From an uncultured Candidatus Saccharibacteria bacterium (GTDB lineage Bacteria; Patescibacteriota; UBA1384; JAMDBS01; DAOVQR01), in assembly GCA_964481135.1 (NCBI GenBank), contig CAYZSW010000006.1, positions 1 through 63,642 on the forward strand: a stretch of 63,642 nucleotides of DNA, read 5' to 3'; not shown here. A report on this DNA, generated by a model with database tools, continues below.

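What the first reader, a model, noticed from the sequence alone, without database searches (positions are those of the whole stretch)
11857..12045. A complete tRNA-Thr(CGU) nested inside the D-arm of a second tRNA-Thr(CGU)-like gene, clamped by GC-rich complementary arms
On the minus strand, 12045->12023 reads GCCCACT-TA-GCTT-TAATGGTA-GA, and 11909->11857 reads GC-A-ATTCC-TTCGTAA-GGAAG-AGGTT-ATTGG-TTCAAAT-CCAAT-AGTGGGC-T-CCA. Joined, these make a 76-nt cloverleaf with a perfect 7-bp acceptor stem, a restored D stem (GCTT/GAGC), a canonical T loop and anticodon CGT. The 113 nt between the two pieces have three parts. The first is a 21-nt arm, CCTGCCCGCCAGTCGCTTAGC. The second is an intact 75-nt tRNA-Thr(CGU) (11927..12001). 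The third is a 17-nt arm, GGCGCTTGGCAGACGGG. The arms can pair (CTGCC/GGCAG, CCAG/TTGG, CGC/GCG), so the inner tRNA sits in the loop of a GC-rich hairpin planted in the outer D stem. The inner and outer genes share only about two thirds of their positions, so this is not a simple recent duplication. I see three readings. (a) It is an intron-like or split-tRNA arrangement. RNase P/Z release of the inner tRNA would leave two outer halves held together by the GC clamp, which recalls archaeal split tRNAs but is not something I know from bacteria. (b) A palindromic element carrying a replacement tRNA-Thr inserted into and killed the resident gene. T instead of the near-invariant A at outer position 14 argues for decay. 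(c) It is an assembly chimera. The arm sequence resembles the CCTGTCYGCC / GGCRGACRGG core of the GC islands at 33.2 and 56.9 kb and the junction of the tRNA-Asp repeats.
Basis: partly seen in the sequence, partly recalled or inferred. Interest (0 to 1): 0.9.

Follow-up and report, generated by a model that had tools for sequence, protein, structure and literature searches.

The report, continued
The parts
12023..12045 (-). Outer tRNA-Thr(CGU) 5' piece (E1): tRNA positions 1-23, comprising the acceptor 5' strand, the D-stem 5' strand, the D loop and the first 2 nt of the D-stem 3' strand.
   Evidence: Read. Joined to E2 it is called tRNA-Thr(cgt) by ARAGORN. It is 22/23 identical to the 5' part of the uninterrupted tRNA in L092.
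12002..12022 (-). 5' arm of the insert, CCTGCCCGCCAGTCGCTTAGC: the left half of a GC-rich imperfect palindrome. Its last 4 nt (TAGC) form an unpaired leader before the inner tRNA.
   Evidence: Homologous to the arm in L113 and to the relic hairpin in L092.
11927..12001 (-). Inner, complete tRNA-Thr(CGU), 75 nt with encoded CCA. This is the presumed working gene.
   Evidence: ARAGORN. Rfam tRNA 71 bits. 71/75 identical to the stand-alone syntenic tRNA-Thr of L087.
11910..11926 (-). 3' arm of the insert, GGCGCTTGGCAGACGGG: the right half of the palindrome.
   Evidence: Nearly identical to the L113 arm GCGCTTGCAGGCGGG.
11857..11909 (-). Outer tRNA-Thr(CGU) 3' piece (E2): positions 24-76, comprising the rest of the D stem, the anticodon arm (CGT), the variable loop, the T arm, the acceptor 3' strand and CCA.
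   Evidence: On its own it scores 26.5 bits against Rfam tRNA, below the gathering score of 29. 50/53 identical to L092, and the T-stem differences are compensatory.
12047..12499 (-). Upstream DUF192 gene. Its stop codon lies 1 nt before E1. It is the probable source of transcription through the tRNA locus.
   Evidence: PF02643. Promoter-like sites lie only upstream of it, and no terminator-like site is found between 11400 and 12700.
11529..11828 (-). Downstream 99-aa membrane-protein gene, followed by the conserved GT2-like 519-aa gene (9951..11510). These are the synteny anchors used to find orthologous loci.
33222..33260 (.). Island C: a cargo-less member of the same GC-rich hairpin family (loop CGACAAAG).
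   Evidence: Similar to the L092 relic hairpin (z 10.6) and to island D (z 14.2). Absent from the orthologous M23-ruvB spacer of L092. No Rfam family matches.
56905..56939 (.). Island D, second half: another cargo-less member of the hairpin family.
   Evidence: No Rfam family matches.

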